A DNA stretch of 64,000 nucleotides from Eledone cirrhosa (lineage: Eukaryota), in the NCBI GenBank assembly GCA_964016885.1, contig CAXHJY010001253.1:1-64000 (forward strand), given 5' to 3'. The translations under genes were made by a program, and so were the position numbers. Below are positions 1-41,300 of the stretch, piece after piece; position 1 is the stretch's first letter; every line of letters starts with the position of its first letter. The notes under the pieces were generated by a model. It worked only from the letters and a program-made list of their open reading frames with translations. It searched no databases and was not told the origin of the DNA.

Positions 1-271
1 ATCGATCCGACCACGGGCGGCCGGCCCGCGATTGAAAAGGTAACTCCGCCGGCAAATCGTCATTTTTGGATTCGTTTTCTTCGAAGCACACCATTCGCCG
101 GCGGACTTTGTTGACGTTTAACACGGTTTGGTTCCACAGCCACAACTATTGATTTTACGGAGATATCTTGCTGAAATTCACGCCACCCATAGCCAATGAG
201 TGTCTGCACATGTACCAGTAATTACAGATCGATACGACCACGGGCGGCCGGCCCGCGATTGAAAAGGTAAC

Positions 272-332
272 TCCGCCGGCAAATCGTCATTTTTGGATTC
301 GTTTTCTTCGAAGCACACCATTCGCCGGCGGA
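272..332. other. Intra-monomer inverted repeat (example copy; present in nearly all A monomers)
   Basis: TCCGCCGGCAAAT (272-284) pairs 12/13 with ATTCGCCGGCGGA (320-332) and extends to 16/19. The spacer is 35 nt. Confidence 0.8.
297..313 (-). other. CENP-B-box-like 17-mer (example copy); function unproven
   Basis: The minus strand reads CTTCGAAGAAAACGAAT, matching 7/9 core positions of NTTCGNNNNANNCGGGN. The variant at 28841-28857 reads CTTCGAAGAAAACGGAT, matching 8/9. Confidence 0.3.
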
Positions 333-11981: not shown

Positions 11982-12208
11982 TCACGCCACACATAGCCAA
12001 TGAGTGTCTGCACATGTACCAGTAATTACAGATCGATCCGACCACAGGCGGCCGGCCCGCGATTGAAAAGGTAACTCCGCCGGCAAATCGTCATTTTTGG
12101 ATTCGTTTTCTTCGAAGCACACCATTCGCCGGCGGACTTTGCTGACGTTTAACACGGTTTGGTTCCACAGCCACAACTATTGATTTTACGGAGATATCTT
12201 GCTGAAAT

Positions 12209-15200: not shown

Positions 15201-15613
15201 TAATTACAGATCGATCCGACCACGGGCGGCCGGCCCGCGATTGAAAAGGTAACTCCGCCGGCAAATCGTCATTTTTGGATTCGTTTTCTTCGAAGCACAC
15301 CATTCGCCGGCGGACTTTGTTGACGTTTAACACGGTTTGGTTCCACAGCCACAACTATTGATTTTACGGAGATATCTTGCTGAAATTCACGCCACACATA
15401 GCCAATGAGTGTCTGCACATGTACCAGTAATTACAGATCGATCCGACCACGGGCGGCCGGCCCGCGATTGAAAAGGTAACTCCGCCGGCAAATCGTCATT
15501 TTTGGATTCGTTTTCTTCGAAGCACACCATTCGCCGGCGGACTTTGTTGACGTTTAACACGGTTTGGTTCCACAGCCACAACTATTGATTTTACGGAGAT
15601 ATCTTGCTGAAAT
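12209..15613 (+). repeat. 9-monomer (2043-bp) period; also 38378-42463
   Basis: Variant monomers recur at +2043: 12663/14706 and 12890/14933; 38605/40648, 38832/40875 and 39513/41556. Confidence 0.85.
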
Positions 15614-15840
15614 TCACGCCACACATAGCCAATGAGTGTCTGCACATGTACCAGTAATTATAGATCGATCCGACCACGGGCGGCCGGCCCGCGATTGAAA
15701 AGGTAACTCCGCCGGCAAATCGTCATTTTTGGATTCGTTTTCTTCGAAGCACACCATTCGCCGGCGGACTTTGTTGACGTTTAACACGGTTTGGTTCCAC
15801 AGCCACAACTATTGATTTTACGGAGATATCTTGCTGAAAT

Positions 15841-17656: not shown

Positions 17657-20600
17657 TCACGCCACACATAGCCAATGAGTGTCTGCACATGTACCAGTAA
17701 TTACAGATCGATCCGACCACGGGCGGCCGGCCCGCGATTGAAAAGGTAACTCCGCCGGCAAATCGTCATTTTTGGATTCGTTTTCTTCGAAGCACACCAT
17801 TCGCCGGCGGACTTTGTTGACGTTTAACACGGTTTGGTTCCACAGCCACAACTATTGATTTTACGGAGATATCTTGCTGAAATTCACGCCACACATAGCC
17901 AATGAGTGTCTGCACATGTACCAGTAATTATAGATCGATCCGACCACGGGCGGCCGGCCCGCGATTGAAAAGGTAACTCCGCCGGCAAATCGTCATTTTT
18001 GGATTCGTTTTCTTCGAAGCACACCATTCGCCGGCGGACTTTGTTGACGTTTAACACGGTTTGGTTCCACAGCCACAACTATTGATTTTACGGAGATATC
18101 ATGCTGAAATTCACGCCACACATAGCCAATGAGTGTCTGCACATGTACCAGTAATTACAGATCGATCCGACCACGGGCGGCCGGCCCGCGATTGAAAAGG
18201 TAACTCCGCCGGCAAATCGCCATTTTTGGATTCGTTTTCTTCGAAGCACACCATTCGCCGGCGGACTTTGTTGACGTTTAACACGGTTTGGTTCCACAGC
18301 CACAACTATTGATTTTACCGAGATATCTTGCTGAAATTCACGCCACACATAGCCAATGAGTGTCTGCACATGTACCAGTAATTACAGATCGATCCGACCA
18401 CGGGCGGCCGGCCCGCGATTGAAAAGGTAACTCCGCCGGCAAATCGTCATTTTTGGATTCGTTTTCTTCGAAGCACACCATTCGCCGGCGGACTTTGCTG
18501 ACGTTTAACACGGTTTGGTTCCACAGCCACAACTATTGATTTTACGGAGATATCTTGCTGAAATTCACGCCACACATAGCCAATGAGTGTCTGCACATGT
18601 ACCAGTAATTACAGATCGATCCGACCACGGGCGGCCGGCCCGCGATTGAAAAGGTAACTCCGCCGGCAAATCGTCATTTTTGGATTCGTTTTCTTCGAAG
18701 CACACCATTCGCCGGCGGACTTTGTTGACGTTTAACACGGTTTGGTTCCACAGCCACAACTATTGATTTTACGGAGATATCTTGCTGAAATTCACGCCAC
18801 ACATAGCCAATGAGTGTCTGCACATGTACCAGTAATTACAGATCGATCCGACCACGGGCGGCCGGCCCGCGATTGAAAAGGTAACTCCGCCGGCAAATCG
18901 TCATTTTTGGATTCGTTTTCTTCGAAGCACACCATTCGCCGGCGGACTTTGTTGACGTTTAACACGGTTTGGTTCCACAGCCACAACTATTGATTTTACG
19001 GAGATATCTTGCTGAAATTCACGCCACCCATAGCCAATGAGTGTCTGCACATGTACCAGTAATTACAGATCGATCCGACCACGGGCGGCCGGCCCGCGAT
19101 TGAAAAGGTAACTCCGCCGGCAAATCGTCATTTTTGGATTCGTTTTCTTCGAAGCACACCATTCGCCGGCGGACTTTGCTGACGTTTAACACGGTTTGGT
19201 TCCACAGCCACAACTATTGATTTTACGGAGATATCTTGCTGAAATTCACGCCACACATAGCCAATGAGTGTCTGCACATGTACCAGTAATTACAGATCGA
19301 TCCGACCACAGGCGGCCGGCCCGCGATTGAAAAGGTAACTCCGCCGGCAAATCGTCATTTTTGGATTCGTTTTCTTCGAAGCACACCATTCGCCGGCGGA
19401 CTTTGTTGACGTTTAACACGGTTTGGTTCCACAGCCACAACTATTGATTTTACGGAGATATCTTGCTGAAATTCACGCCACCCATAGCCAATGAGTGTCT
19501 GCACATGTACCAGTAATTACAGATCGATACGACCACGGGCGGCCGGCCCGCGATTGAAAAGGTAACTCCGCCGGCAAATCGTCATTTTTGGATTCGTTTT
19601 CTTCGAAGCACACCATTCGCCGGCGGACTTTGCTGACGTTTAACACGGTTTGGTTCCACAGCCACAACTATTGATTTTACGGAGATATCTTGCTGAAATT
19701 CACGCCACCCATAGCCAATGAGTGTCTGCACATGTACCAGTAATTACAGATCGATCCGACCACGGGCGGCCGGCCCGCGATTGAAAAGGTAACTCCGCCG
19801 GCAAATCGTCATTTTTGGATTCGTTTTCTTCGAAGCACACCATTCGCCGGCGGACTTTGTTGACGTTTAACACGGTTTGGTTCCACAGCCACAACTATTG
19901 ATTTTACGGAGATATCTTGCTGAAATTCACGCCACACATAGCCAATGAGTGTCTGCACATGTACCAGTAATTACAGATCGATCCGACCACGGGCGGCCGG
20001 CCCGCGATTGAAAAGGTAACTCCGCCGGCAAATCGTCATTTTTGGATTCGTTTTCTTCGAAGCACACCATTCGCCGGCGGACTTTGTTGACGTTTAACAC
20101 GGTTTGGTTCCACAGCCACAACTATTGATTTTACGGAGATATCTTGCTGAAATTCACGCCACACATAGCCAATGAGTGTCTGCACATGTACCAGTAATTA
20201 TAGATCGATCCGACCACGGGCGGCCGGCCCGCGATTGAAAAGGTAACTCCGCCGGCAAATCGTCATTTTTGGATTCGTTTTCTTCGAAGCACACCATTCG
20301 CCGGCGGACTTTGCTGACGTTTAACACGGTTTGGTTCCACAGCCACAACTATTGATTTTACGGAGATATCTTGCTGAAATTCACGCCACACATAGCCAAT
20401 GAGTGTCTGCACATGTACCAGTAATTACAGATCGATCCGACCACAGGCGGCCGGCCCGCGATTGAAAAGGTAACTCCGCCGGCAAATCGTCATTTTTGGA
20501 TTCGTTTTCTTCGAAGCACACCATTCGCCGGCGGACTTTGTTGACGTTTAACACGGTTTGGTTCCACAGCCACAACTATTGATTTTACGGAGATATCTTG

Positions 20601-22650
20601 CTGAAATTCACGCCACCCATAGCCAATGAGTGTCTGCACATGTACCAGTAATTACAGATCGATCCGACCACGGGCGGCCGGCCCGCGATTGAAAAGGTAA
20701 CTCCGCCGGCAAATCGTCATTTTTGGATTCGTTTTCTTCGAAGCACACCATTCGCCGGCGGACTTTGTTGACGTTTAACACGGTTTGGTTCCACAGCCAC
20801 AACTATTGATTTTACGGAGATATCTTGCTGAAATTCACGCCACACATAGCCAATGAGTGTCTGCACATGTACCAGTAATTACAGATCGATCCGACCACGG
20901 GCGGCCGGCCCGCGATTGAAAAGGTAACTCCGCCGGCAAATCGTCATTTTTGGATTCGTTTTCTTCGAAGCACACCATTCGCCGGCGGACTTTGTTGACG
21001 TTTAACACGGTTTGGTTCCACAGCCACAACTATTGATTTTACGGAGATATCTTGCTGAAATTCACGCCACACATAGCCAATGAGTGTCTGCACATGTACC
21101 AGTAATTATAGATCGATCCGACCACGGGCGGCCGGCCCGCGATTGAAAAGGTAACTCCGCCGGCAAATCGTCATTTTTGGATTCGTTTTCTTCGAAGCAC
21201 ACCATTCGCCGGCGGACTTTGTTGACGTTTAACACGGTTTGGTTCCACAGCCACAACTATTGATTTTACGGAGATATCTTGCTGAAATTCACGCCACACA
21301 TAGCCAATGAGTGTCTGCACATGTACCAGTAATTACAGATCGATCCGACCACGGGCTGCCGGCCCGCGATTGAAAAGGTAACTCCGCCGGCAAATCGCCA
21401 TTTTTGGATTCGTTTTCTTCGAAGCACACCATTCGCCGGCGGACTTTGTTGACGTTTAACACGGTTTGGTTCCACAGCCACAACTATTGATTTTACCGAG
21501 ATATCTTGCTGAAATTCACGCCACACATAGCCAATGAGTGTCTGCACATGTACCAGTAATTACAGATCGATCCGACCACGGGCGGCCGGCCCGCGATTGA
21601 AAAGGTAACTCCGCCGGCAAATCGTCATTTTTGGATTCGTTTTCTTCGAAGCACACCATTCGCCGGCGGACTTTGCTGACGTTTAACACGGTTTGGTTCC
21701 ACAGCCACAACTATTGATTTTACGGAGATATCTTGCTGAAATTCACGCCACACATAGCCAATGAGTGTCTGCACATGTACCAGTAATTACAGATCGATCC
21801 GACCACGGGCGGCCGGCCCGCGATTGAAAAGGTAACTCCGCCGGCAAATCGTCATTTTTGGATTCGTTTTCTTCGAAGCACACCATTCGCCGGCGGACTT
21901 TGTTGACGTTTAACACGGTTTGGTTCCACAGCCACAACTATTGATTTTACGGAGATATCTTGCTGAAATTCACGCCACACATAGCCAATGAGTGTCTGCA
22001 CATGTACCAGTAATTACACATCGATCCGACCACGGGCGGCCGGGCCGTGATTGAAAAGGTAACTCCGCCGGCAAATCGTCATTTTTGGATTCGTTTTCTT
22101 CGAAGCACACCATTCGCCGGCGGACTTTGCTGACGTTTAACACGGTTTGGTTCCACAGCCACAACTATTGATTTTACGGAGATATCTTGCTGAAATTCAC
22201 GCCACACATAGCCAATGAGTGTCTGCACATGTACCAGTAATTACAGATCGATCCGACCACGGGCGGCCGGCCCGCGATTGAAAAGGTAACTCCGCCGGCA
22301 AATCGTCATTTTTGGATTCGTTTTCTTCGAAGCACACCATTCGCCGGCGGACTTTGTTGACGTTTAACACGGTTTGGTTCCACAGCCACAACTATTGATT
22401 TTACGGAGATATCTTGCTGAAATTCACGCCACACATAGCCAATGAGTGTCTGCACATGTACCAGTAATTATAGATCGATCCGACCACGGGCGGCCGGCCC
22501 GCGATTGAAAAGGTAACTCCGCCGGCAAATCGTCATTTTTGGATTCGTTTTCTTCGAAGCACACCATTCGCCGGCGGACTTTGTTGACGTTTAACACGGT
22601 TTGGTTCCACAGCCACAACTATTGATTTTACGGAGATATCATGCTGAAAT

Positions 22651-25600
22651 TCACGCCACACATAGCCAATGAGTGTCTGCACATGTACCAGTAATTACAG
22701 ATCGATCCGACCACGGGCGGCCGGCCCGCGATTGAAAAGGTAACTCCGCCGGCAAATCGCCATTTTTGGATTCGTTTTCTTCGAAGCACACCATTCGCCG
22801 GCGGACTTTGTTGACGTTTAACACGGTTTGGTTCCACAGCCACAACTATTGATTTTACCGAGATATCTTGCTGAAATTCACGCCACACATAGCCAATGAG
22901 TGTCTGCACATGTACCAGTAATTACAGATCGATCCGACCACGGGCGGCCGGCCCGCGATTGAAAAGGTAACTCCGCCGGCAAATCGCCATTTTTGGATTC
23001 GTTTTCTTCGAAGCACACCATTCGCCGGCGGACTTTGTTGACGTTTAACACGGTTTGGTTCCACAGCCACAACTATTGATTTTACGGAGATATCTTGCTG
23101 AAATTCACGCCACCCATAGCCAATGAGTGTCTGCACATGTACCAGTAATTACAGATCGACCCGACCACGGGCGGCCGGCCCGCGATTGAAAAGGTAACTC
23201 CGCCGGCAAATCGTCATTTTTGGATTCGTTTTCTTCGAAGCACACCATTCGCCGGCGGACTTTGCTGACGTTTAACACGGTTTGGTTCCACAGCCACAAC
23301 TATTGATTTTACGGAGATATCTTGCTGAAATTCACGCCACACATAGCCAATGAGTGTCTGCACATGTACCAGTAATTACAGATCGATCCGACCACGGGCG
23401 GCCGGCCCGCGATTGAAAAGGTAACTCCGCCGGCAAATCGTCATTTTTGGATTCGTTTTCTTCGAAGCACACCATTCGCCGGCGGACTTTGTTGACGTTT
23501 AACACGGTTTGGTTCCACAGCCACAACTATTGATTTTACGGAGATATCTTGCTGAAATTCACGCCACCCATAGCCAATGAGTGTCTGCACATGTACCAGT
23601 AATTACAGATCGATCCGACCACGGGCGGCCGGCCCGCGATTGAAAAGGTAACTCCGCCGGCAAATCGTCATTTTTGGATTCGTTTTCTTCGAAGCACACC
23701 ATTCGCCGGCGGACTTTGCTGACGTTTAACACGGTTTGGTTCCACAGCCACAACTATTGATTTTACGGAGATATCTTGCTGAAATTCACGCCACCCATAG
23801 CCAATGAGTGTCTGCACATGTACCAGTAATTACAGATCGATCCGACCACGGGCGGCCGGGCCGTGATTGAAAAGGTAACTCCGCCGGCAAATCGTCATTT
23901 TTGGATTCGTTTTCTTCGAAGCACACCATTCGCCGGCGGACTTTGTTGACGTTTAACACGGTTTGGTTCCACAGCCACAACTATTGATTTTACGGAGATA
24001 TCTTGCTGAAATTCACGCCACCCATAGCCAATGAGTGTCTGCACATGTACCAGTAATTACAGATCGACCCGACCACGGGCGGCCGGCCCGCGATTGAAAA
24101 GGTAACTCCGCCGGCAAATCGTCATTTTTGGATTCGTTTTCTTCGAAGCACACCATTCGCCGGCGGACTTTGCTGACGTTTAACACGGTTTGGTTCCACA
24201 GCCACAACTATTGATTTTACGGAGATATCTTGCTGAAATTCACGCCACACATAGCCAATGAGTGTCTGCACATGTACCAGTAATTACAGATCGATCCGAC
24301 CACGGGCGGCCGGCCCGCGATTGAAAAGGTAACTCCGCCGGCAAATCGTCATTTTTGGATTCGTTTTCTTCGAAGCACACCATTCGCCGGCGGACTTTGT
24401 TGACGTTTAACACGGTTTGGTTCCACAGCCACAACTATTGATTTTACGGAGATATCTTGCTGAAATTCACGCCACACATAGCCAATGAGTGTCTGCACAT
24501 GTACCAGTAATTACAGATCGATCCGACCACGGGCGGCCGGCCCGCGATTGAAAAGGTAACTCCGCCGGCAAATCGTCATTTTTGGATTCGTTTTCTTCGA
24601 AGCACACCATTCGCCGGCGGACTTTGTTGACGTTTAACACGGTTTGGTTCCACAGCCACAACTATTGATTTTACGGAGATATCTTGCTGAAATTCACGCC
24701 ACACATAGCCAATGAGTGTCTGCACATGTACCAGTAATTATAGATCGATCCGACCACGGGCGGCCGGCCCGCGATTGAAAAGGTAACTCCGCCGGCAAAT
24801 CGTCATTTTTGGATTCGTTTTCTTCGAAGCACACCATTCGCCGGCGGACTTTGTTGACGTTTAACACGGTTTGGTTCCACAGCCACAACTATTGATTTTA
24901 CGGAGATATCTTGCTGAAATTCACGCCACACATAGCCAATGAGTGTCTGCACATGTACCAGTAATTACAGATCGATCCGACCACGGGCTGCCGGCCCGCG
25001 ATTGAAAAGGTAACTCCGCCGGCAAATCGCCATTTTTGGATTCGTTTTCTTCGAAGCACACCATTCGCCGGCGGACTTTGTTGACGTTTAACACGGTTTG
25101 GTTCCACAGCCACAACTATTGATTTTACGGAGATATCATGCTGAAATTCACGCCACACATAGCCAATGAGTGTCTGCACATGTACCAGTAATTACAGATC
25201 GATCCGACCACGGGCGGCCGGCCCGCGATTGAAAAGGTAACTCCGCCGGCAAATCGCCATTTTTGGATTCGTTTTCTTCGAAGCACACCATTCGCCGGCG
25301 GACTTTGTTGACGTTTAACACGGTTTGGTTCCACAGCCACAACTATTGATTTTACCGAGATATCTTGCTGAAATTCACGCCACACATAGCCAATGAGTGT
25401 CTGCACATGTACCAGTAATTACAGATCGATCCGACCACGGGCGGCCGGCCCGCGATTGAAAAGGTAACTCCGCCGGCAAATCGCCATTTTTGGATTCGTT
25501 TTCTTCGAAGCACACCATTCGCCGGCGGACTTTGTTGACGTTTAACACGGTTTGGTTCCACAGCCACAACTATTGATTTTACGGAGATATCTTGCTGAAA

Positions 25601-27644
25601 TTCACGCCACCCATAGCCAATGAGTGTCTGCACATGTACCAGTAATTACAGATCGACCCGACCACGGGCGGCCGGCCCGCGATTGAAAAGGTAACTCCGC
25701 CGGCAAATCGTCATTTTTGGATTCGTTTTCTTCGAAGCACACCATTCGCCGGCGGACTTTGCTGACGTTTAACACGGTTTGGTTCCACAGCCACAACTAT
25801 TGATTTTACGGAGATATCTTGCTGAAATTCACGCCACACATAGCCAATGAGTGTCTGCACATGTACCAGTAATTACAGATCGATCCGACCACGGGCGGCC
25901 GGCCCGCGATTGAAAAGGTAACTCCGCCGGCAAATCGTCATTTTTGGATTCGTTTTCTTCGAAGCACACCATTCGCCGGCGGACTTTGTTGACGTTTAAC
26001 ACGGTTTGGTTCCACAGCCACAACTATTGATTTTACGGAGATATCTTGCTGAAATTCACGCCACCCATAGCCAATGAGTGTCTGCACATGTACCAGTAAT
26101 TACAGATCGATCCGACCACGGGCGGCCGGCCCGCGATTGAAAAGGTAACTCCGCCGGCAAATCGTCATTTTTGGATTCGTTTTCTTCGAAGCACACCATT
26201 CGCCGGCGGACTTTGCTGACGTTTAACACGGTTTGGTTCCACAGCCACAACTATTGATTTTACGGAGATATCTTGCTGAAATTCACGCCACCCATAGCCA
26301 ATGAGTGTCTGCACATGTACCAGTAATTACAGATCGATCCGACCACGGGCGGCCGGGCCGTGATTGAAAAGGTAACTCCGCCGGCAAATCGTCATTTTTG
26401 GATTCGTTTTCTTCGAAGCACACCATTCGCCGGCGGACTTTGTTGACGTTTAACACGGTTTGGTTCCACAGCCACAACTATTGATTTTACGGAGATATCT
26501 TGCTGAAATTCACGCCACCCATAGCCAATGAGTGTCTGCACATGTACCAGTAATTACAGATCGACCCGACCACGGGCGGCCGGCCCGCGATTGAAAAGGT
26601 AACTCCGCCGGCAAATCGTCATTTTTGGATTCGTTTTCTTCGAAGCACACCATTCGCCGGCGGACTTTGCTGACGTTTAACACGGTTTGGTTCCACAGCC
26701 ACAACTATTGATTTTACGGAGATATCTTGCTGAAATTCACGCCACACATAGCCAATGAGTGTCTGCACATGTACCAGTAATTACAGATCGATCCGACCAC
26801 GGGCGGCCGGCCCGCGATTGAAAAGGTAACTCCGCCGGCAAATCGTCATTTTTGGATTCGTTTTCTTCGAAGCACACCATTCGCCGGCGGACTTTGTTGA
26901 CGTTTAACACGGTTTGGTTCCACAGCCACAACTATTGATTTTACGGAGATATCTTGCTGAAATTCACGCCACACATAGCCAATGAGTGTCTGCACATGTA
27001 CCAGTAATTACAGATCGATCCGACCACGGGCGGCCGGCCCGCGATTGAAAAGGTAACTCCGCCGGCAAATCGTCATTTTTGGATTCGTTTTCTTCGAAGC
27101 ACACCATTCGCCGGCGGACTTTGTTGACGTTTAACACGGTTTGGTTCCACAGCCACAACTATTGATTTTACGGAGATATCTTGCTGAAATTCACGCCACA
27201 CATAGCCAATGAGTGTCTGCACATGTACCAGTAATTATAGATCGATCCGACCACGGGCGGCCGGCCCGCGATTGAAAAGGTAACTCCGCCGGCAAATCGT
27301 CATTTTTGGATTCGTTTTCTTCGAAGCACACCATTCGCCGGCGGACTTTGTTGACGTTTAACACGGTTTGGTTCCACAGCCACAACTATTGATTTTACGG
27401 AGATATCTTGCTGAAATTCACGCCACACATAGCCAATGAGTGTCTGCACATGTACCAGTAATTACAGATCGATCCGACCACGGGCTGCCGGCCCGCGATT
27501 GAAAAGGTAACTCCGCCGGCAAATCGCCATTTTTGGATTCGTTTTCTTCGAAGCACACCATTCGCCGGCGGACTTTGTTGACGTTTAACACGGTTTGGTT
27601 CCACAGCCACAACTATTGATTTTACCGAGATATCTTGCTGAAAT
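22651..27644 (+). repeat. 11-monomer (2497-bp) tandem duplication; another 11-mer at 41329-46322
   Basis: The variant series is repeated from 22651 and 25148 (23786/26283, 24694/27191, 24921/27418). Confidence 0.87.
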
Positions 27645-28484
27645 TCACGCCACACATAGCCAATGAGTGTCTGCACATGTACCAGTAATTACAGATCGAT
27701 CCGACCACGGGCGGCCGGCCCGCGATTGAAAAGGTAACTCCGCCGGCAAATCGTCATTTTTGGATTCGTTTTCTTCGAAGCACACCATTCGCCGGCGGAC
27801 TTTGCTGACGTTTAACACGGTTTGGTTCCACAGCCACAACTATTGATTTTACGGAGATATCTTGCTGAAATTCACGCCACACATAGCCAATGAGTGTCTG
27901 CACATGTACCAGTAATTACAGATCGATCCGACCACGGGCGGCCGGCCCGCGATTGAAAAGGTAACTCCGCCGGCAAATCGTCATTTTTGGATTCGTTTTC
28001 TTCGAAGCACACCATTCGCCGGCGGACTTTGTTGACGTTTAACACGGTTTGGTTCCACAGCCACAACTATTGATTTTACGGAGATATCTTGCTGAAATTC
28101 ACGCCACACATAGCCAATGAGTGTCTGCACATGTACCAGTAATTACACATCGATCCGACCACGGGCGGCCGGGCCGTGATTGAAAAGGTAACTCCGCCGG
28201 CAAATCGTCATTTTTGGATTCGTTTTCTTCGAAGCACACCATTCGCCGGCGGACTTTGCTGACGTTTAACACGGTTTGGTTCCACAGCCACAACTATTGA
28301 TTTTACGGAGATATCTTGCTGAAATTCACGCCACACATAGCCAATGAGTGTCTGCACATGTACCAGTAATTACACATCGATCCGACCACGGGCGGCTGGC
28401 CCGCGATTGAAAAGGTAACTCCGCCGGCAAATCGTCATTTTTGGATTCGTTTTCTTCGAAGCACACCATTCGCCGCCGGACTTC

Positions 28485-28516
28485 AGCTGCCTCATTTAGC
28501 ATGGGCAGTTTTTTTT
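28485..28516 (+). terminator. Terminator-like hairpin plus T-tract in tail-B (example copy; one per B monomer)
   Basis: AGCTGCC(T)CAT-TTAGC-ATGGGCAG followed by T8 (or TTTTTCTT). The shape is clear, but there is no evidence of transcription. Confidence 0.2.
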
Positions 28517-29113
28517 GAAAATCACACCACACACAACCAATGTGTGTCTGCACATGTACCAGTAATTACAGATCGATCCCACCACGGGCGGCCGGCCCAC
28601 AATCGAAAAGGTTACTCCGCCTGCAAATCGTCATTTTCGGATTCGTTTTCTTCGAAGCACACCATTCGCCGGCGGACTTCAGCTGCCTCATTTAGCATGG
28701 GCAGTTTTTCTTGAAGATCACACCACACACAGCCAATGAGTGTCTGCACATGTACCAGTAATTAGAGATCGATCCGACCACGGGCGGCCGGCCCACGATC
28801 GAGAAAAAGGTAACTCCGCCGGCAAATCGTCATTTTTGTGATCCGTTTTCTTCGAAGCACACCATTCGCCGCCGGACTTCAGCTGCCTCATTTAGCATGG
28901 GCAGTTTTTTTTGAAAATCACACCACACACAACCAATGTGTGTCTGCACATGTACCAGTAATTACAGATCGATCCGACCACGGGCGGCCGGCCCGCGATT
29001 GAAAAGGTAACTCCGCCGGCAAATCGTCATTTTTGTGATTCGTTTTCTTCGAAGCACACCATTCGCCGCCGGACTTCAGCTGCCTCATTTAGCATGGGAG
29101 TTTTTTTTGAAAA

Positions 29114-29281
29114 TCACACCACACACAACCAATGTGTGTCTGCACATGTACCAGTAATTACAGATCGATCCCACCACGAGTTCAATGTAAACAAACTTAC
29201 GCTCAACGACTTTGTTGACGTTTAACACGGTTTGGTTCCACAGCCACAACTATTGATTTTACGGAGATATCTTGCTGAAAT
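29114..29281 (+). repeat. Type-C 168-bp monomer (first of 10), in which a 29-bp linker replaces the core
   Basis: Linker AGTTCAATGTAAAC(A/T)AACTTACGCTCAAC starts at 29179, 30987, 32202, 33614, 35649, 36863, 38275, 60342, 62150 and 63562, always 103 bp before the next unit start. Confidence 0.95.
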
Positions 29282-32200
29282 TCACGCCACACATAGCCAA
29301 TGAGTGTCTGCACATGTACCAGTAATTACAGATCGATCCGACCAGGGGCGGCCGGCCCGCGATTGAAAAGGTAACTCCGCCGGCAAATCGTCATTTTTGG
29401 ATTCGTTTTCTTCGAAGCACACCATTCGCCGGCGGACTTTGTTGACGTTTAACACGGTTTGGTTCCACAGCCACAACTATTGATTTTAAGGAGATATCTT
29501 GCTGAAATTCACGCCACACATAGCCAATGAGTGTCTGCACATGTACCAGTAATTACAGATCGATCCGACCAGGGGCGGCCGGCCCGCGATTGAAAAGGTA
29601 ACTCCGCCGGCAAATCGTCATTTTTGTGATTCGTTTTCTTCGAAGCACACCATTCGCCGGCGGACTTTGTTGACGTTTAACACGGTTTGGTTCCACAGCC
29701 ACAACTATTGATTTTAAGGAGATATCTTGCTGAAATTCACGCCACACATAGCCAATGAGTGTCTGCATATGTACCAGTAATTACAGATCGATCCGACCAC
29801 GGACGGCCGGCCCGCGATTGAAAAGGTAACTCCGCCGGCAAATCGTCATTTTCGGATTCGTTTTCTTCGAAGCACACCATTCGCCGGCGGACTTCAGCTG
29901 CCTCATTTAGCATGGGCAGTTTTTCTTGAAGATCACACCACACACAGCCAATGAGTGTCTGCACATGTACCAGTAATTACAGATGGATCCCACCACGGGC
30001 GGCCGGCCCACAATCGAAAAGGTTACTCCGCCTGCAAATCGTCATTTTCGGATTCGTTTTCTTCGAAGCACACCATTCGCCGGCGGACTTCAGCTGCCTC
30101 ATTTAGCATGGGCAGTTTTTCTTGAAGATCACACCACACACAGCCAATGAGTGTCTGCACATGTACCAGTAATTAGAGATCGATCCGACCACGGGCGGCC
30201 GGCCCACGATCGAGAAAAAGGTAACTCCGCCGGCAAATCGTCATTTTTGTGATCCGTTTTCTTCGAAGCACACCATTCGCCGCCGGACTTCAGCTGCCTC
30301 ATTTAGCATGGGCAGTTTTTTTTGAAAATCACACCACACACAACCAATGTGTGTCTGCACATGTACCAGTAATTACAGATCGATCCGACCACGGGCGGCC
30401 GGCCCGCGATTGAAAAGGTAACTCCGCCGGCAAATCGTCATTTTTGTGATTCGTTTTCTTCGAAGCACACCATTCGCCGCCGGACTTCAGCTGCCTCATT
30501 TAACATGGGCAGTTTTTTTTTAAAATCACACCACATACAACCAATGTGTGTCTGCACATGTACCAGTAATTACAGATCGATCCCACCACGGGCGGCCGGC
30601 CCACAATCGAAAAGGTTACTCCGCCTGCAAATCGTCATTTTCGGATTCGTTTTCTTCGAAGCACACCATTCGCCGCCGGACTTCAGCTGCCTCATTTAGC
30701 ATGGGCAGTTTTTCTTGAAGATCACACCACACACAGCCAATGAGTGTCTGCACATGTACCAGTAATTAGAGATCGATCCGACCACGGGCGGCCGGCCCAC
30801 GATCGAGAAAAAGGTAACTCCGCCGGCAAATCGTCATTTTTGTGATCCGTTTTCTTCGAAGCACACCATTCGCCGCCGGACTTCAGCTGCCTCATTTAGC
30901 ATGGGCAGTTTTTTTTGAAAATCACACCACACACAACCAATGTGTTTCTGCACATGTACCAGTAATTACAGATCGATCCCACCACGAGTTCAATGTAAAC
31001 TAACTTACGCTCAACGACTTTGTTGACGTTTAACACGGTTTGGTTCCACAGCCACAACTATTGATTTTAAGGAGATATCTTGCTGAAATTCACGCCACAC
31101 ATAGCCAATGAGTGTCTGCACATGTACCAGTAATTACAGATCGATCCGACCACGGGCGGCCAGCCCGCGATTGAAAAGGTAACTCCGCCGGCAAATCGTC
31201 ATTTTTGGATTCGTTTTCTTCGAAGCACACCATTCGCCGGCGGACTTTGTTGACGTTTAACACGGTTTGGTTCCACAGCCACAACTATTGATTTTAAGGA
31301 GATATCTTGCTGAAATTCACGCCACACATAGCCAATGAGTGTCTGCACATGTACCAGTAATTACAGATCGATCCGACCAGGGGCGGCCGGCCCGCGATTG
31401 AAAAGGTAACTCCGCCGGCAAATCGTCATTTTTGGATTCGTTTTCTTGGAAGCACACCATTCGCCGGCGGACTTTGTTGACGTTTAACACGGTTTGGTTC
31501 CACAGCCACAACTATTGATTTTAAGGAGATATCTTGCTGAAATTCACGCCACACATAGCCAATGAGTGTCTGCACATGTACCAGTAATTACAGATCGATC
31601 CGACCACGGGCGGCCGGCCCGCGATTGAAAAAGTAACTCCGCCGGCAAATCGTCATTTTTGTGATCCGTTTTCTTCGAAGCACACCATTCGCCGCCGGAC
31701 TTCAGCTGCCTCATTTAGCATGGGCTGTTTTTTTTGAAAATCACACCACACACAACCAATGTGTGTCTGCACATGTACCAGTAATTACAGATCGATCCCC
31801 CCACGGGCGGCCGGCCCACAATCGAAAAGGTTACTCCGCCTGCAAATCGTCATTTTCGGATTCGTTTTCTTCGAAGCACACCATTCGCCGGCGGACTTCA
31901 GCTGCCTCATTTAGCATGGGCAGTTTTTCTTGAAGATCACACCACACACAGCCAATGAGTGTCTGCACATGTACCAGTAATTAGAGATCGATCCGACCAC
32001 GGGCGGCCGGCCCACGATCGAGAAAAAGGTAACTCCGCCGGCAAATCGTCATTTTTGTGATCCGTTTTCTTCGAAGCACACCATTCGCCGCCGGACTTCA
32101 GCTGCCTCATTTAGCATGGGCAGTTTTTTTTGAAAATCACACCACACACAACCAATGTGTTTCTGCACATGTACCAGTAATTACAGATCGATCCCACCAC

Positions 32201-35200
32201 GAGTTCAATGTAAACTAACTTACGCTCAACGACTTTGTTGACGTTTAACACGGTTTGGTTCCACAGCCACAACTATTGATTTTAAGGAGATATCTTGCTG
32301 AAATTCACGCCACACATAGCCAATGAGTGTCTGCACATGTACCAGTAATTACAGATCGATCCGACCACGGGCGGCCAGCCCGCGATTGAAAAGGTAACTC
32401 CGCCGGCAAATCGTCATTTTTGGATTCGTTTTCTTCGAAGCACACCATTCGCCGGCGGACTTTGTTGACGTTTAACACGGTTTGGTTCCACAGCCACAAC
32501 TATTGATTTTAAGGAGATATCTTGCTGAAATTCACGCCACACATAGCCAATGAGTGTCTGCACATGTACCAGTAATTACAGATCGATCCGACCAGGGGCG
32601 GCCGGCCCGCGATTGAAAAGGTAACTCCGCCGGCAAATCGTCATTTTTGGATTCGTTTTCTTGGAAGCACACCATTCGCCGGCGGACTTTGTTGACGTTT
32701 AACACGGTTTGGTTCCACAGCCACAACTATTGATTTTAAGGAGATATCTTGCTGAAATTCACGCCACACATAGCCAATGAGTGTCTGCACATGTACCAGT
32801 AATTACAGATCGATCCGACCACGGGCGGCCGGCCCGCGATTGAAAAAGTAACTCCGCCGGCAAATCGTCATTTTTGTGATCCGTTTTCTTCGAAGCACAC
32901 CATTCGCCGCCGGACTTCAGCTGCCTCATTTAGCATGGGCTGTTTTTTTTGAAAATCACACCACACACAACCAATGTGTGTCTGCACATGTACCAGTAAT
33001 TACAGATCGATCCCCCCACGGGCGGCCGGCCCACAATCGAAAAGGTTACTCCGCCTGCAAATCGTCATTTTCGGATTCGTTTTCTTCGAAGCACACCATT
33101 CGCCGGCGGACTTCAGCTGCCTCATTTAGCATGGGCAGTTTTTCTTGAAGATCACACCACACACAGCCAATGAGTGTCTGCACATGTACCAGTAATTAGA
33201 GATCGATCCGACCACGGGCGGCCGGCCCACGATCGAGAAAAAGGTAACTCCGCCGGCAAATCGTCATTTTTGTGATCCGTTTTCTTCGAAGCACACCATT
33301 CGCCGCCGGACTTCAGCTGCCTCATTTAGCATGGGCAGTTTTTTTTGAAAATCACACCACACACAACCAATGTGTGTCTGCACATGTACCAGTAATTACA
33401 GATCGATCTGACCACGGGCGGCCGGCCCGCGATTGAAAAGGTAACTCCGCCGGCAAATCGTCATTTTTGTGATTCGTTTTCTTCGAAGCACACCATTCGC
33501 CGCCGGACTTCAGCTGCCTCATTTAGCATGGGCAGTTTTTTTTGAAAATCATACCACACACAACCAATGTGTGTCTGCACATGTACCAGTAATTACAGAT
33601 CGATCCCACCACGAGTTCAATGTAAACAAACTTACGCTCAACGACTTTGTTGACGTTTAACACGGTTTGGTTCCACAGCCACAACTATTGATTTTACGGA
33701 GATATCTTGCTGAAATTCACGCCACACATAGCCAATGAGTGTCTGCACATGTACCAGTAATTACAGATCGATCCGACCACAGGCGGCCGGCCCGCGATTG
33801 AAAAGGTAACTCCGCCGGCAAATCGTCATTTTTGGATTCGTTTTCTTCGAAGCACACCATTCGCCGGCGGACTTTGTTGACGTTTAACACGGTTTGGTTC
33901 CACAGCCACAACTATTGATTTTACGGAGATATCTTGCTGAAATTCACGCCACACATAGCCAATGAGTGTCTGCACATGTACCAGTAATTACAGATCGATC
34001 CGACCAGGGGCGGCCGGCCCGCGATTGAAAAGGTAACTCCGCCGGCAAATCGTCATTTTTGGATTCGTTTTCTTCGAAGCACACCATTCGCCGGCGGACT
34101 TTGTTGACGTTTAACACGGTTTGGTTCCACAGCCACAACTATTGATTTTAAGGAGATATCTTGCTGAAATTCACGCCACACATAGCCAATGAGTGTCTGC
34201 ACATGTACCAGTAATTACAGATCGATCCGACCAGGGGCGGCCGGCCCGCGATTGAAAAGGTAACTCCGCCGGCAAATCGTCATTTTTGTGATTCGTTTTC
34301 TTCGAAGCACACCATTCGCCGGCGGACTTTGTTGACGTTTAACACGGTTTGGTTCCACAGCCACAACTATTGATTTTAAGGAGATATCTTGCTGAAATTC
34401 ACGCCACACATAGCCAATGAGTGTCTGCATATGTACCAGTAATTACAGATCGATCCGACCACGGACGGCCGGCCCGCGATTGAAAAGGTAACTCCGCCGG
34501 CAAATCGTCATTTTCGGATTCGTTTTCTTCGAAGCACACCATTCGCCGGCGGACTTCAGCTGCCTCATTTAGCATGGGCAGTTTTTCTTGAAGATCACAC
34601 CACACACAGCCAATGAGTGTCTGCACATGTACCAGTAATTACAGATGGATCCCACCACGGGCGGCCGGCCCACAATCGAAAAGGTTACTCCGCCTGCAAA
34701 TCGTCATTTTCGGATTCGTTTTCTTCGAAGCACACCATTCGCCGGCGGACTTCAGCTGCCTCATTTAGCATGGGCAGTTTTTCTTGAAGATCACACCACA
34801 CACAGCCAATGAGTGTCTGCACATGTACCAGTAATTAGAGATCGATCCGACCACGGGCGGCCGGCCCACGATCGAGAAAAAGGTAACTCCGCCGGCAAAT
34901 CGTCATTTTTGTGATCCGTTTTCTTCGAAGCACACCATTCGCCGCCGGACTTCAGCTGCCTCATTTAGCATGGGCAGTTTTTTTTGAAAATCACACCACA
35001 CACAACCAATGTGTGTCTGCACATGTACCAGTAATTACAGATCGATCCGACCACGGGCGGCCGGCCCGCGATTGAAAAGGTAACTCCGCCGGCAAATCGT
35101 CATTTTTGTGATTCGTTTTCTTCGAAGCACACCATTCGCCGCCGGACTTCAGCTGCCTCATTTAACATGGGCAGTTTTTTTTTAAAATCACACCACATAC

Positions 35201-38200
35201 AACCAATGTGTGTCTGCACATGTACCAGTAATTACAGATCGATCCCACCACGGGCGGCCGGCCCACAATCGAAAAGGTTACTCCGCCTGCAAATCGTCAT
35301 TTTCGGATTCGTTTTCTTCGAAGCACACCATTCGCCGCCGGACTTCAGCTGCCTCATTTAGCATGGGCAGTTTTTCTTGAAGATCACACCACACACAGCC
35401 AATGAGTGTCTGCACATGTACCAGTAATTAGAGATCGATCCGACCACGGGCGGCCGGCCCACGATCGAGAAAAAGGTAACTCCGCCGGCAAATCGTCATT
35501 TTTGTGATCCGTTTTCTTCGAAGCACACCATTCGCCGCCGGACTTCAGCTGCCTCATTTAGCATGGGCAGTTTTTTTTGAAAATCACACCACACACAACC
35601 AATGTGTTTCTGCACATGTACCAGTAATTACAGATCGATCCCACCACGAGTTCAATGTAAACTAACTTACGCTCAACGACTTTGTTGACGTTTAACACGG
35701 TTTGGTTCCACAGCCACAACTATTGATTTTAAGGAGATATCTTGCTGAAATTCACGCCACACATAGCCAATGAGTGTCTGCACATGTACCAGTAATTACA
35801 GATCGATCCGACCACGGGCGGCCAGCCCGCGATTGAAAAGGTAACTCCGCCGGCAAATCGTCATTTTTGGATTCGTTTTCTTCGAAGCACACCATTCGCC
35901 GGCGGACTTTGTTGACGTTTAACACGGTTTGGTTCCACAGCCACAACTATTGATTTTAAGGAGATATCTTGCTGAAATTCACGCCACACATAGCCAATGA
36001 GTGTCTGCACATGTACCAGTAATTACAGATCGATCCGACCAGGGGCGGCCGGCCCGCGATTGAAAAGTAACTCCGCCGGCAAATCGTCATTTTTGGATTC
36101 GTTTTCTTGGAAGCACACCATTCGCCGGCGGACTTTGTTGACGTTTAACACGGTTTGGTTCCACAGCCACAACTATTGATTTTAAGGAGATATCTTGCTG
36201 AAATTCACGCCACACATAGCCAATGAGTGTCTGCACATGTACCAGTAATTACAGATCGATCCGACCACGGGCGGCCGGCCCGCGATTGAAAAAGTAACTC
36301 CGCCGGCAAATCGTCATTTTTGTGATCCGTTTTCTTCGAAGCACACCATTCGCCGCCGGACTTCAGCTGCCTCATTTAGCATGGGCTGTTTTTTTTGAAA
36401 ATCACACCACACACAACCAATGTGTGTCTGCACATGTACCAGTAATTACAGATCGATCCCCCCACGGGCGGCCGGCCCACAATCGAAAAGGTTACTCCGC
36501 CTGCAAATCGTCATTTTCGGATTCGTTTTCTTCGAAGCACACCATTCGCCGGCGGACTTCAGCTGCCTCATTTAGCATGGGCAGTTTTTCTTGAAGATCA
36601 CACCACACACAGCCAATGAGTGTCTGCACATGTACCAGTAATTAGAGATCGATCCGACCACGGGCGGCCGGCCCACGATCGAGAAAAAGGTAACTCCGCC
36701 GGCAAATCGTCATTTTTGTGATCCGTTTTCTTCGAAGCACACCATTCGCCGCCGGACTTCAGCTGCCTCATTTAGCATGGGCAGTTTTTTTTGAAAATCA
36801 CACCACACACAACCAATGTGTTTCTGCACATGTACCAGTAATTACAGATCGATCCCACCACGAGTTCAATGTAAACTAACTTACGCTCAACGACTTTGTT
36901 GACGTTTAACACGGTTTGGTTCCACAGCCACAACTATTGATTTTAAGGAGATATCTTGCTGAAATTCACGCCACACATAGCCAATGAGTGTCTGCACATG
37001 TACCAGTAATTACAGATCGATCCGACCACGGGCGGCCAGCCCGCGATTGAAAAGGTAACTCCGCCGGCAAATCGTCATTTTTGGATTCGTTTTCTTCGAA
37101 GCACACCATTCGCCGGCGGACTTTGTTGACGTTTAACACGGTTTGGTTCCACAGCCACAACTATTGATTTTAAGGAGATATCTTGCTGAAATTCACGCCA
37201 CACATAGCCAATGAGTGTCTGCACATGTACCAGTAATTACAGATCGATCCGACCAGGGGCGGCCGGCCCGCGATTGAAAAGGTAACTCCGCCGGCAAATC
37301 GTCATTTTTGGATTCGTTTTCTTGGAAGCACACCATTCGCCGGCGGACTTTGTTGACGTTTAACACGGTTTGGTTCCACAGCCACAACTATTGATTTTAA
37401 GGAGATATCTTGCTGAAATTCACGCCACACATAGCCAATGAGTGTCTGCACATGTACCAGTAATTACAGATCGATCCGACCACGGGCGGCCGGCCCGCGA
37501 TTGAAAAAGTAACTCCGCCGGCAAATCGTCATTTTTGTGATCCGTTTTCTTCGAAGCACACCATTCGCCGCCGGACTTCAGCTGCCTCATTTAGCATGGG
37601 CTGTTTTTTTTGAAAATCACACCACACACAACCAATGTGTGTCTGCACATGTACCAGTAATTACAGATCGATCCCCCCACGGGCGGCCGGCCCACAATCG
37701 AAAAGGTTACTCCGCCTGCAAATCGTCATTTTCGGATTCGTTTTCTTCGAAGCACACCATTCGCCGGCGGACTTCAGCTGCCTCATTTAGCATGGGCAGT
37801 TTTTCTTGAAGATCACACCACACACAGCCAATGAGTGTCTGCACATGTACCAGTAATTAGAGATCGATCCGACCACGGGCGGCCGGCCCACGATCGAGAA
37901 AAAGGTAACTCCGCCGGCAAATCGTCATTTTTGTGATCCGTTTTCTTCGAAGCACACCATTCGCCGCCGGACTTCAGCTGCCTCATTTAGCATGGGCAGT
38001 TTTTTTTGAAAATCACACCACACACAACCAATGTGTGTCTGCACATGTACCAGTAATTACAGATCGATCTGACCACGGGCGGCCGGCCCGCGATTGAAAA
38101 GGTAACTCCGCCGGCAAATCGTCATTTTTGTGATTCGTTTTCTTCGAAGCACACCATTCGCCGCCGGACTTCAGCTGCCTCATTTAGCATGGGCAGTTTT

Positions 38201-38377
38201 TTTTGAAAATCATACCACACACAACCAATGTGTGTCTGCACATGTACCAGTAATTACAGATCGATCCCACCACGAGTTCAATGTAAACAAACTTACGCTC
38301 AACGACTTTGTTGACGTTTAACACGGTTTGGTTCCACAGCCACAACTATTGATTTTACGGAGATATCTTGCTGAAAT
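29282..38377 (+). repeat. ~4.66-kb tandem duplication inside island 1 (29282-33943 vs 33944 onward)
   Basis: Landmarks offset by 4662 (29737/34399, 30505/35167, 31090/35752), then by 4661 after a 1-bp deletion near 36067 (32305/36966, 33469/38130). Confidence 0.93.
31090..33351 (+). repeat. 1215-bp composite higher-order repeat (A-A-B-B-B-C), tandemly duplicated; also present at 35752/36966
   Basis: Offsets of 1215 at 31090/32305, 31317/32532 and 31661/32876. Shared private variants GGCCAGCCC, TCTTGGAAG, GGGCTGTTT and GATCCCCCCAC. Confidence 0.92.
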
Positions 38378-41300
38378 TCACGCCACCCATAGCCAATGAG
38401 TGTCTGCACATGTACCAGTAATTACAGATCGATCCGACCACGGGCGGCCGGCCCGCGATTGAAAAGGTAACTCCGCCGGCAAATCGTCATTTTTGGATTC
38501 GTTTTCTTCGAAGCACACCATTCGCCGGCGGACTTTGCTGACGTTTAACACGGTTTGGTTCCACAGCCACAACTATTGATTTTACGGAGATATCTTGCTG
38601 AAATTCACGCCACACATAGCCAATGAGTGTCTGCACATGTACCAGTAATTACAGATCGATCCGACCACAGGCGGCCGGCCCGCGATTGAAAAGGTAACTC
38701 CGCCGGCAAATCGTCATTTTTGGATTCGTTTTCTTCGAAGCACACCATTCGCCGGCGGACTTTGTTGACGTTTAACACGGTTTGGTTCCACAGCCACAAC
38801 TATTGATTTTACGGAGATATCTTGCTGAAATTCACGCCACCCATAGCCAATGAGTGTCTGCACATGTACCAGTAATTACAGATCGATACGACCACGGGCG
38901 GCCGGCCCGCGATTGAAAAGGTAACTCCGCCGGCAAATCGTCATTTTTGGATTCGTTTTCTTCGAAGCACACCATTCGCCGGCGGACTTTGCTGACGTTT
39001 AACACGGTTTGGTTCCACAGCCACAACTATTGATTTTACGGAGATATCTTGCTGAAATTCACGCCACCCATAGCCAATGAGTGTCTGCACATGTACCAGT
39101 AATTACAGATCGATCCGACCACGGGCGGCCGGCCCGCGATTGAAAAGGTAACTCCGCCGGCAAATCGTCATTTTTGGATTCGTTTTCTTCGAAGCACACC
39201 ATTCGCCGGCGGACTTTGTTGACGTTTAACACGGTTTGGTTCCACAGCCACAACTATTGATTTTACGGAGATATCTTGCTGAAATTCACGCCACCCATAG
39301 CCAATGAGTGTCTGCACATGTACCAGTAATTACAGATCGATCCGACCACGGGCGGCCGGCCCGCGATTGAAAAGGTAACTCCGCCGGCAAATCGTCATTT
39401 TTGGATTCGTTTTCTTCGAAGCACACCATTCGCCGGCGGACTTTGCTGACGTTTAACACGGTTTGGTTCCACAGCCACAACTATTGATTTTACGGAGATA
39501 TCTTGCTGAAATTCACGCCACCCATAGCCAATGAGTGTCTGCACATGTACCAGTAATTACAGATCGATCCGACCACGGGCGGCCGGGCCGTGATTGAAAA
39601 GGTAACTCCGCCGGCAAATCGTCATTTTTGGATTCGTTTTCTTCGAAGCACACCATTCGCCGGCGGACTTTGTTGACGTTTAACACGGTTTGGTTCCACA
39701 GCCACAACTATTGATTTTACGGAGATATCTTGCTGAAATTCACGCCACCCATAGCCAATGAGTGTCTGCACATGTACCAGTAATTACAGATCGACCCGAC
39801 CACGGGCGGCCGGCCCGCGATTGAAAAGGTAACTCCGCCGGCAAATCGTCATTTTTGGATTCGTTTTCTTCGAAGCACACCATTCGCCGGCGGACTTTGC
39901 TGACGTTTAACACGGTTTGGTTCCACAGCCACAACTATTGATTTTACGGAGATATCTTGCTGAAATTCACGCCACACATAGCCAATGAGTGTCTGCACAT
40001 GTACCAGTAATTACAGATCGATCCGACCACGGGCGGCCGGCCCGCGATTGAAAAGGTAACTCCGCCGGCAAATCGTCATTTTTGGATTCGTTTTCTTCGA
40101 AGCACACCATTCGCCGGCGGACTTTGTTGACGTTTAACACGGTTTGGTTCCACAGCCACAACTATTGATTTTACGGAGATATCTTGCTGAAATTCACGCC
40201 ACACATAGCCAATGAGTGTCTGCACATGTACCAGTAATTACAGATCGATCCGACCACGGGCGGCCGGCCCGCGATTGAAAAGGTAACTCCGCCGGCAAAT
40301 CGTCATTTTTGGATTCGTTTTCTTCGAAGCACACCATTCGCCGGCGGACTTTGTTGACGTTTAACACGGTTTGGTTCCACAGCCACAACTATTGATTTTA
40401 CGGAGATATCTTGCTGAAATTCACGCCACCCATAGCCAATGAGTGTCTGCACATGTACCAGTAATTACAGATCGATCCGACCACGGGCGGCCGGCCCGCG
40501 ATTGAAAAGGTAACTCCGCCGGCAAATCGTCATTTTTGGATTCGTTTTCTTCGAAGCACACCATTCGCCGGCGGACTTTGCTGACGTTTAACACGGTTTG
40601 GTTCCACAGCCACAACTATTGATTTTACGGAGATATCTTGCTGAAATTCACGCCACACATAGCCAATGAGTGTCTGCACATGTACCAGTAATTACAGATC
40701 GATCCGACCACAGGCGGCCGGCCCGCGATTGAAAAGGTAACTCCGCCGGCAAATCGTCATTTTTGGATTCGTTTTCTTCGAAGCACACCATTCGCCGGCG
40801 GACTTTGTTGACGTTTAACACGGTTTGGTTCCACAGCCACAACTATTGATTTTACGGAGATATCTTGCTGAAATTCACGCCACCCATAGCCAATGAGTGT
40901 CTGCACATGTACCAGTAATTACAGATCGATACGACCACGGGCGGCCGGCCCGCGATTGAAAAGGTAACTCCGCCGGCAAATCGTCATTTTTGGATTCGTT
41001 TTCTTCGAAGCACACCATTCGCCGGCGGACTTTGCTGACGTTTAACACGGTTTGGTTCCACAGCCACAACTATTGATTTTACGGAGATATCTTGCTGAAA
41101 TTCACGCCACCCATAGCCAATGAGTGTCTGCACATGTACCAGTAATTACAGATCGATCCGACCACGGGCGGCCGGCCCGCGATTGAAAAGGTAACTCCGC
41201 CGGCAAATCGTCATTTTTGGATTCGTTTTCTTCGAAGCACACCATTCGCCGGCGGACTTTGTTGACGTTTAACACGGTTTGGTTCCACAGCCACAACTAT

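What the first reader, a model, noticed from the sequence alone, without database searches (positions are those of the whole stretch)
28918..29281. Apparent birth record of the 227-bp satellite: B + C fused by a GACTT-microhomology deletion
Seen: B = head + core + GACTT + tail-B; C = head + 29-bp linker + GACTT + tail-A; A = head + core + GACTT + tail-A. Every C directly follows a B. Deleting from the GACTT of a B to the GACTT of the next C removes 38+65+29+5 = 137 bp, and 196+168-137 = 227, exactly an A monomer. B units are diverse (subtypes, indels), while A units are nearly identical. Inference: B is ancestral, and a ~100-bp foreign segment (linker + tail-A) entered a B unit to make C. A microhomology-mediated deletion then created the chimeric A, which swept the array, leaving the islands as relics.
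Basis: partly seen in the sequence, partly recalled or inferred. Interest (0 to 1): 0.75.

Follow-up and report, generated by a model that had tools for sequence, protein, structure and literature searches.

The report
Hybrid satellite born from sister repeats
The 227-base repeat filling this window is the front of one repeat type joined to the back of another at a shared five-letter word, and it likely arose recently from two old sister repeats that still survive without it elsewhere in the genome, which makes it a well-preserved example of a known way that satellite DNA renews itself.

Summary
The A/B/C anatomy is real. All 90 sampled C units with a visible predecessor follow a B. A joins the B front to the C tail at GACTT, and raw reads from another study show this joint.

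The direction (A young, from B and C) is supported: 13 sampled loci on two chromosomes hold diverse B or B+C with no A, and A carries derived states on both sides of the joint.

Two claims fail. First, linker + tail-A is not foreign. A fourth family, D (about 1,260 copies, C2:209.2 Mb), is a dimer of sister monomers that both carry the distal tail-A. Its D1 monomer is 168 bp, like C, and D2 matches C's linker in place. C is therefore likely an old sister monomer, and tail-B the derived part. Second, this island is not the birth record. The pair here gives 228 bp, 0 of 90 B units before a C carry A's core, and the islands are identical recent copies.

Hybrid monomers made by out-of-register deletion are a known satellite process. 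No outgroup species was obtained, and the scan has no earlier look-alike.

The parts
28918..29113 (+). B monomer (196 bp) of the finding: head, core, GACTT, tail-B (tail-B is 37 bp in this copy)
29009..29027 (+). left arm of an imperfect 19-bp inverted repeat in the core
   Evidence: 15/19 in modal A, shuffle p 0.002, chosen after inspection
29058..29076 (+). right arm of the inverted repeat, ending in GACTT (29072-29076), the B-side junction word
29077..29113 (+). tail-B: no match in family D, likely the derived tail; weakly resembles the 3' core
29114..29281 (+). C monomer (168 bp): head ending CCCACCAC, 29-bp linker, GACTT, tail-A; likely old sister monomer, counterpart of D2
29179..29207 (+). 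linker; matches the start of D2's 16-bp minisatellite at the same position after the head
   Evidence: 16/29 ungapped; offset scan peaks at 0 and +16; 10/29 against B core, 5/29 against D1
29208..29212 (+). GACTT, the C-side junction word (AACTT in all 22 sampled C of chromosome C1)
29213..29240 (+). proximal tail-A, shared by C and A only; holds the polarising site at 29238 (C in all 450 A and in 69 C; A in 22 C1-type C and in 73 of 73 D1); origin unresolved
29241..29275 (+). distal tail-A, native upstream partner of the head in both D monomers
29308..29534 (+). A monomer (227 bp) following the C
1..28351 (+). homogeneous A array (about 125 copies)
28352..38403 (+). B/C/A island 1, with an internal 4.66-kb duplication
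38404..59514 (+). homogeneous A array (about 93 copies)
59515..64000 (+). B/C/A island 2, identical to island 1 over its first 3,000 bp; continues to the contig end at 70 kb

Best explanation
A is a hybrid satellite monomer with B's front and C's tail joined at GACTT; it likely arose once, recently, by an out-of-register deletion in a mixed B/C array, and C is likely an old sister monomer rather than a B carrying foreign DNA. Steps: (1) Inferred from family D: the ancestor had 168-bp monomers of two kinds, core-type and linker-type, both with the distal tail-A in front of the head. (2) Inferred: the core-type lineage lengthened its core, replaced its tail and became B, which spread on C1, C2 and C4 with occasional C units; such A-free layers are shown to exist. 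(3) Inferred: a break or template switch at the foot of the core's inverted repeat was repaired on the GACTT of a downstream C of the C4 type; the B donor was not of the kinds that precede C today. (4) Shown as a pattern, inferred as a process: A was amplified by ordinary tandem-repeat turnover, now outnumbers C more than tenfold and has mixed into B arrays on C1 and C2. B units right after an A carry A's core, as expected of crossovers back into B, and islands are copied along with A.
For: A-free layers: C1 279.69-279.82 Mb holds B+C only, C1 279.84-279.93 pure B, and C2 243.85, 244.0, 244.2 and 244.45 pure B. That is 587 B and 22 C with no A in 13 loci, with B distances of 3-10% within a locus. 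A rises along C2 from 0 of 50 units (244.45) to 16 of 48 (244.6) and 29 of 45 (244.8).

Polarity from D, front: D1 and old B read CCCACGATCG, while 404 of 450 A in the three commonest classes read CCCGCGATTG, a state found in 0 of 587 B of A-free loci. Polarity from D, tail: D1 (73/73) and C1-type C (22/22) read TTAC, while all 450 A and the other 69 C read TTCC.

A's 99-bp tail is 0-2 changes from C4-type C and 1-3 from C1-type C, but A's 127-bp front is at least 6 (median 11) changes from any B of A-free loci, so the tail was shared recently. A tree with the D1 core as outgroup nests A among B (support 82/84, not starred). C matches D in length, head end and linker. The reciprocal junction (linker-GACTT-tail-B) has 0 exact copies in the assembly, which fits a rare one-way event. 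Exact-motif counts: A joint 9,185; C linker 574; B tail 7,592 (B is undercounted because it varies).
Against: No outgroup species: the other organism labels gave only trace depth, and raw reads of one of them gave none. Polarity rests on one paralog and three sites. D1 itself has the order head-core-distal tail-A, so A's gross layout is ancestral-like. Tail diversity is not lower in A than in C (2.0% against 1.6%). A keeps the perfect 9-bp stem (400 of 450 A; 2 of 587 B in A-free loci), and the old-B state looks like CpG decay of it (inference), so A holds a probably ancestral state there. The direct B parent was not found: A's full core occurs in B only right after an A (22 of 22). The proximal 28 bp of tail-A have no significant match in D (p 0.12 and 0.90). 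The tree is weak and recombination violates its model. The loci were hand-picked, and most A copies lie in places I did not sample. Five shared bases at a joint between two AT-rich neighbours are compatible with microhomology repair but do not prove it.
Confidence: 0.65

Rival explanations
1. A's layout is the old one: a D1-like monomer lengthened its core to give A, B arose from it by tail replacement, and today's A copies are only a recently homogenised lineage whose tail was kept alike with C by conversion.
For: D1 has head, core and distal tail-A in A's order. Tail-B has no match in D. A keeps the perfect stem that old B seems to have lost by CpG decay. Tail diversity in A is not below that in C.
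Against: No diverged A was seen among 450 sampled (front distance 2.3%). C units in A-free layers have a tail only 1-3 changes from A's and hold the D-like TTAC state that no sampled A has, which would need an extinct older A as donor. A's front state GCGATTG is absent from D1 and from A-free B.
Confidence: 0.18
2. A is a B/C hybrid, but it was made by conversion or template switching between units or arrays (tail capture), not by deleting the DNA between a B and a downstream C.
For: No B that precedes a C carries A's core (0 of 90). A's core looks like a mosaic of B subtypes: front state shared with B1, one-base loss and CCGGCG shared with B2.
Against: A deletion from a non-adjacent B to a later C, or later change in A's founder, explains the same data. 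The joint is clean, with five shared bases and no inserted letters (table 5).
Confidence: 0.1
3. One reading: foreign DNA entered a B to make C, the adjacent B-C pair was fused, and the islands here are relics of that event.
For: C always follows B. The proximal 28 bp of tail-A have no significant match in B or D. 51 of 90 B before a C share A's front state and are 2-3 changes from A's front.
Against: Distal tail-A, the linker, the head end and the 168-bp length all have counterparts in D. No dispersed donor was seen: the tail motif has one hit in the first 279.7 Mb of C1, and the printed DNA around it shows no head. The product of the named pair is 228 bp with two differences from A. The islands are identical recent copies.
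Confidence: 0.07

Closest known systems
Hybrid monomers in human alpha-satellite higher-order repeats (PMC6447721; passages read)
   Same: An out-of-register deletion joins the first part of one monomer to the last part of another.
   Different: In the passages read, the parents are same-length homologous monomers and the hybrid is a part of a higher-order repeat. Here the joined interiors do not align, the unit length changes (196 and 168 to 227), and the hybrid forms its own monomeric arrays.
Meloidogyne chitwoodi/fallax satellite library with Box 1 and Box 2 junctions (PMC3694981; passages read)
   Same: Divergent monomers share a conserved block, occur in simple and mixed arrays, and are rearranged at short shared motifs.
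   Different: Their junction motifs are 17-20 bp and conserved across the library. The joint here is a 5-bp word outside the conserved head, and is AACTT in one C lineage.
Drosophila buzzatii-cluster pBuM-1 (alpha) to pBuM-2 (alpha/beta) turnover (PMC5555486; passages read)
   Different: Beta is described as non-homologous and of unknown origin, and the direction is rooted with other species. Here the added part has a sister in the same genome and no outgroup species was available.
Rsp-like insertion into 1.688 arrays in the Drosophila simulans clade (PMC7403614; abstract read)
   Same: Microhomology-mediated repair is proposed for joints between two satellites, and the younger one invades arrays of the older.
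   Different: It concerns insertion of an existing, separate satellite, not the making of a new hybrid monomer.
Layered expansion of centromeric arrays (bioRxiv 10.1101/2021.07.12.452052; abstract and section 9 read)
   Same: Young homogeneous repeats lie beside older, more divergent layers.
   Different: Mirror symmetry was not shown here, the C1 layers are separated by an assembly gap, and centromere function was not tested.

Membership tests
Satellite DNA with concerted evolution | long head-to-tail arrays of a non-coding unit, homogeneous within an array | tested here: met
   no Rfam match in 28300-30400
Hybrid monomer by out-of-register deletion | 5' part from one monomer type, 3' part from another, sharp joint | tested here: met
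Hybrid monomer by out-of-register deletion | both parents present and older than the hybrid | tested here: inconclusive
   A-free B and B+C layers and three polarised sites; exact B parent not found; no outgroup species
Microhomology-mediated end joining product | short identical word at the joint present in both parents, kept once, no insertion | tested here: met
   GACTT in B, in 69 of 91 C and once in A; necessary, not sufficient
Microhomology-mediated end joining product | dependence on the repair pathway | not testable with these tools
   needs genetics
pBuM-2-type composite (insertion of non-homologous DNA) | added segment has no counterpart in the satellite family | tested here: not met
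   distal tail-A and linker have counterparts in family D; 28 bp remain unassigned
Centromeric layered expansion | young core flanked on both sides by older layers | tested here: inconclusive
   one-sided gradients on C1 and C2 from sparse 10-kb samples
Centromeric layered expansion | CENP-A on the youngest layer | not testable with these tools
   no chromatin data
Helentron central repeat (as in oyster; PMC7492417 seen only as a search listing; motif likeness recalled, from no call) | short arrays dispersed through the genome inside element ends | tested here: not met
   one hit of the tail motif in the first 279.7 Mb of C1, with no head in the printed flanks; other chromosomes were not listed by the tool

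The most novel reading that the evidence does not exclude
One genome preserves the whole pedigree of a satellite family: a 168-bp core/linker dimer (D), its descendants B and C, and the hybrid A. A was cut at the foot of a hairpin and won because it reunited an intact stem with the ancestral tail, becoming the new centromeric layer. The same linker also seeded the 16-bp minisatellite that lies beside interstitial TTAGGG arrays.
Probability: 0.12. Interest if true: 0.65.

Novelty: new member of a known kind. Interest (0 to 1): 0.36.

Why it matters
New satellite monomers are usually seen only after their parents have vanished, so their origin is guessed. Here both parents, layers that lack the hybrid, a zone where it mixes into the older array, and a more distant sister family that gives direction all sit in one assembly. 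That makes it a clean test case for how a length-changing hybrid arises and spreads, and for whether spread needs a structural advantage. The process itself is already described in other animals, and no function is shown.

Tried and rejected
Tail-A as a diverged homolog of tail-B: it looked plausible by eye, but scores were within shuffles for four B types (p 0.6-0.9). A weak reverse-complement similarity of the C interior to B (p 0.006-0.03) was not pursued.

Special folding of A: no monomer type folded better than shuffles (z from -1.8 to +0.1; A -0.44), so a whole-monomer structural advantage is not supported.

Outgroup by sequencing runs: 8 of 24 listed runs were laid. Five contig runs with other organism labels had depths of about 10 to a few thousand, against about a million in the matching organism's run, and raw reads for one of those labels gave 0. 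I read them as traces and drew nothing from their A-only or B-only patterns.

Dispersed donor: DNA searches returned only satellite copies among the 40 scored of about 585 candidates. The C3 junction piece is single-copy. A 3-mismatch tail search listed only exact hits first.

The first haplotype script mis-parsed two of three sites (only its unit counts, site 3 and C/A tail states are used) and was redone. Rfam gave nothing.

The B-before-C rule was tested on sampled stretches only, not genome-wide. Loci L001-L005, L046-L065 and L100-L122 (overlapping samples) and L020 and L023 (fragments) were left out of the counts.

Literature: 9 searches listed no description of this family by title or start of abstract. 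They cannot search by sequence, and no supplements were read.

Full report
What is there. The window is the first 64 kb of a 70-kb unplaced contig (C1280) of a 3.0-Gb genome. It is one satellite array of 234 A, 45 B and 10 C units. The three types share a head. A and B share the core, A and C share tail-A, and the switch point is GACTT. All 10 C follow a B. The A joint and the C linker are present in raw reads of a separate study of the same coded organism, so the unit types are real. Earlier scan notes call this genome octopus-like; I did not test that.

The arithmetic. At the stated place the two GACTT are 136 bp apart, and the joined product is 228 bp with two differences from the modal A. 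The sum 227 holds for a generic B and only restates the shared modules. In the wider sample, 0 of 90 B units before a C carry A's core haplotype, and 1 of 90 has A's state next to the junction. A's full core appears in B only directly after an A (22 of 22), as expected of crossovers from A back into B. The two islands of the window are identical over 3,000 bp and hold an internal repeat identical over 1,800 bp, while A neighbours are about 99% alike. They are recent copies, or in part assembly duplicates, not untouched relics.

The rest of the genome. Exact motifs give 9,185 A joints, 574 C linkers and 7,592 B tails. I sampled 60 stretches of up to 10 kb; 31 of them held A/B/C arrays and went into the counts. 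On C1 the array runs from B+C without A (279.69-279.82 Mb) through pure B to an assembly gap, then A+B without C (to 280.11 Mb). On C2, pure B samples (243.85-244.45 Mb, with one mixed patch at 244.32) give way to rising A at 244.6 and 244.8. C4 (211.63-212.26 Mb) is a B/C/A mosaic with the same subtypes as the window's islands.

A fourth family. A loose end in laid contigs led to family D: 1,264 motif hits starting at C2:209.196 Mb, with D units in samples up to 209.84 Mb. Its unit of about 520 bp is a dimer. D1 is head, short core and distal tail-A, 168 bp in 73 of 73 units. D2 is head, a run of a 16-bp minisatellite and distal tail-A. The distal 35 bp of tail-A match D1 at 30 of 35 positions and D2 at z 10.5; tail-B matches neither; the start of B's core matches D1 (z 5.4-5.7). 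C's 29-bp linker matches D2 at the same position after the head, 16 of 29 without gaps (p 2e-5), against 10 for B's core and 5 for D1. C and D2 end the head in CCCACCA (73 of 91 C; the other 18 TCCACCA); A, most B and D1 read CCGAC. So linker + tail-A does occur outside A/B/C, but in a sister satellite and in the same place relative to the head. I infer that C is an old linker-type monomer of ancestral length and that tail-B is the novelty. The proximal 28 bp of tail-A stay unassigned (p 0.12).

Direction. With D as reference, A is derived on both sides of the joint. Front: ACGATCG in D1 and old B, GCGATTG in most A and in 0 of 587 A-free B. Tail: TTAC in D1 and the 22 C of chromosome C1, TTCC in all 450 A and the 69 other C. 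A's tail is 0-3 changes from any 168-bp C, while its front is at least 6 changes from any A-free B. The tail was therefore shared recently, and the C lineage holds both the old and the new state, which points to C as donor. A tree with D1 as outgroup nests A within B, without strong support. Against this: tail diversity is not lower in A than in C; D1 already has A's gross order; A keeps a stem that old B seems to have lost; and only three sites and one paralog give the root.

Mechanism. Shown: a clean joint with five shared bases. GACTT ends the right arm of a 15/19 inverted repeat in the core (p 0.002, noticed after the fact), and the 9-bp stem is perfect in 400 of 450 A but in 2 of 587 A-free B. 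Inferred: a break or stalled fork at the stem foot of a stem-intact B was repaired on a downstream C's GACTT, and tandem-repeat turnover (unequal exchange and conversion, from general knowledge) did the rest. Whole-monomer folding is not unusual for any type, so no structural advantage of A is shown. The reciprocal junction is absent from the assembly as an exact motif, which argues against frequent two-way exchange at GACTT.

Comparison. Hybrid monomers from out-of-register deletions are described for human alpha satellite (PMC6447721, passages). Rearrangement of divergent monomers at short motifs is described in Meloidogyne (PMC3694981, passages), composite-unit turnover in Drosophila pBuM (PMC5555486, passages), microhomology at satellite joints in Rsp-like/1.688 (PMC7403614, abstract), and young-beside-old layers in human centromeres (bioRxiv 10.1101/2021.07.12.452052, section 9). 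This case works like the first of these. It differs in that the hybrid changed unit length, joined non-alignable interiors and formed its own arrays. It is not a pBuM-type foreign insertion. Centromere function is untested; the sampled arrays lie in mid-chromosome satellite blocks, which is only suggestive.

Verdict. The central idea, that A is a young B/C hybrid, is the best reading (about 0.65). The foreign-insertion step and the 'birth record at this island' are not supported. It is a new, well-preserved member of a known kind; interest 0.36.

Noticed in passing
L023:5300-9350 (G000:C3:184.746-184.750 Mb): Pieces of B, C and A sit inside a large degenerate TTAGGG array in mid-chromosome. 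Two copies break inside tail-A where its TTTA runs straight into GGGTTAG, as telomere healing at a break would look. A third piece ends in a short inversion joined to a D1-like tail and the 16-bp repeat; this junction is single-copy.
   Followed up: partly
L024 (G000:C3:184.85 Mb); L067-L078, L080-L083 (C2:209.2-209.84 Mb): The 16-bp minisatellite inside D2 also forms a free array next to the C3 TTAGGG block and resembles degenerate telomere repeats. Whether it grew from a linker-like sequence or the linker is a decayed copy of it is open.
   Followed up: partly
L089, L090 (G000:C2:243.3-243.6 Mb): TTAGGG arrays fill two samples 300 kb apart, just upstream of the pure B array: a second association of this family with interstitial telomere repeats.
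   Followed up: no
window:29027-29063 against 29087-29123 (approximate): B's 3' core resembles tail-B plus the start of the head about 60 bp later (p 0.004-0.013 in 3 of 4 modal B, 0.12 in the fourth; post hoc), so B may have been built by an internal duplication.
   Followed up: partly
L019, L020 (G000:C2:244.32-244.34 Mb): A small patch of B, A and 153-bp C (15-bp loss) lies between runs of a 25-28-bp repeat within the pure B region.
   Followed up: no
L041 (G000:C2:169.457 Mb): A short homogeneous A array ends in B, then a truncated C, then non-satellite DNA: a transplanted block whose end keeps the B-C pair.
   Followed up: partly
L006-L011, L016, L020, L026, L079, L094: Many unrelated satellites abut these arrays (55, 99, 29, 48, 20, 46/91 and 12-bp units), forming satellite mosaics more than 2 Mb long on C4.
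   Followed up: no
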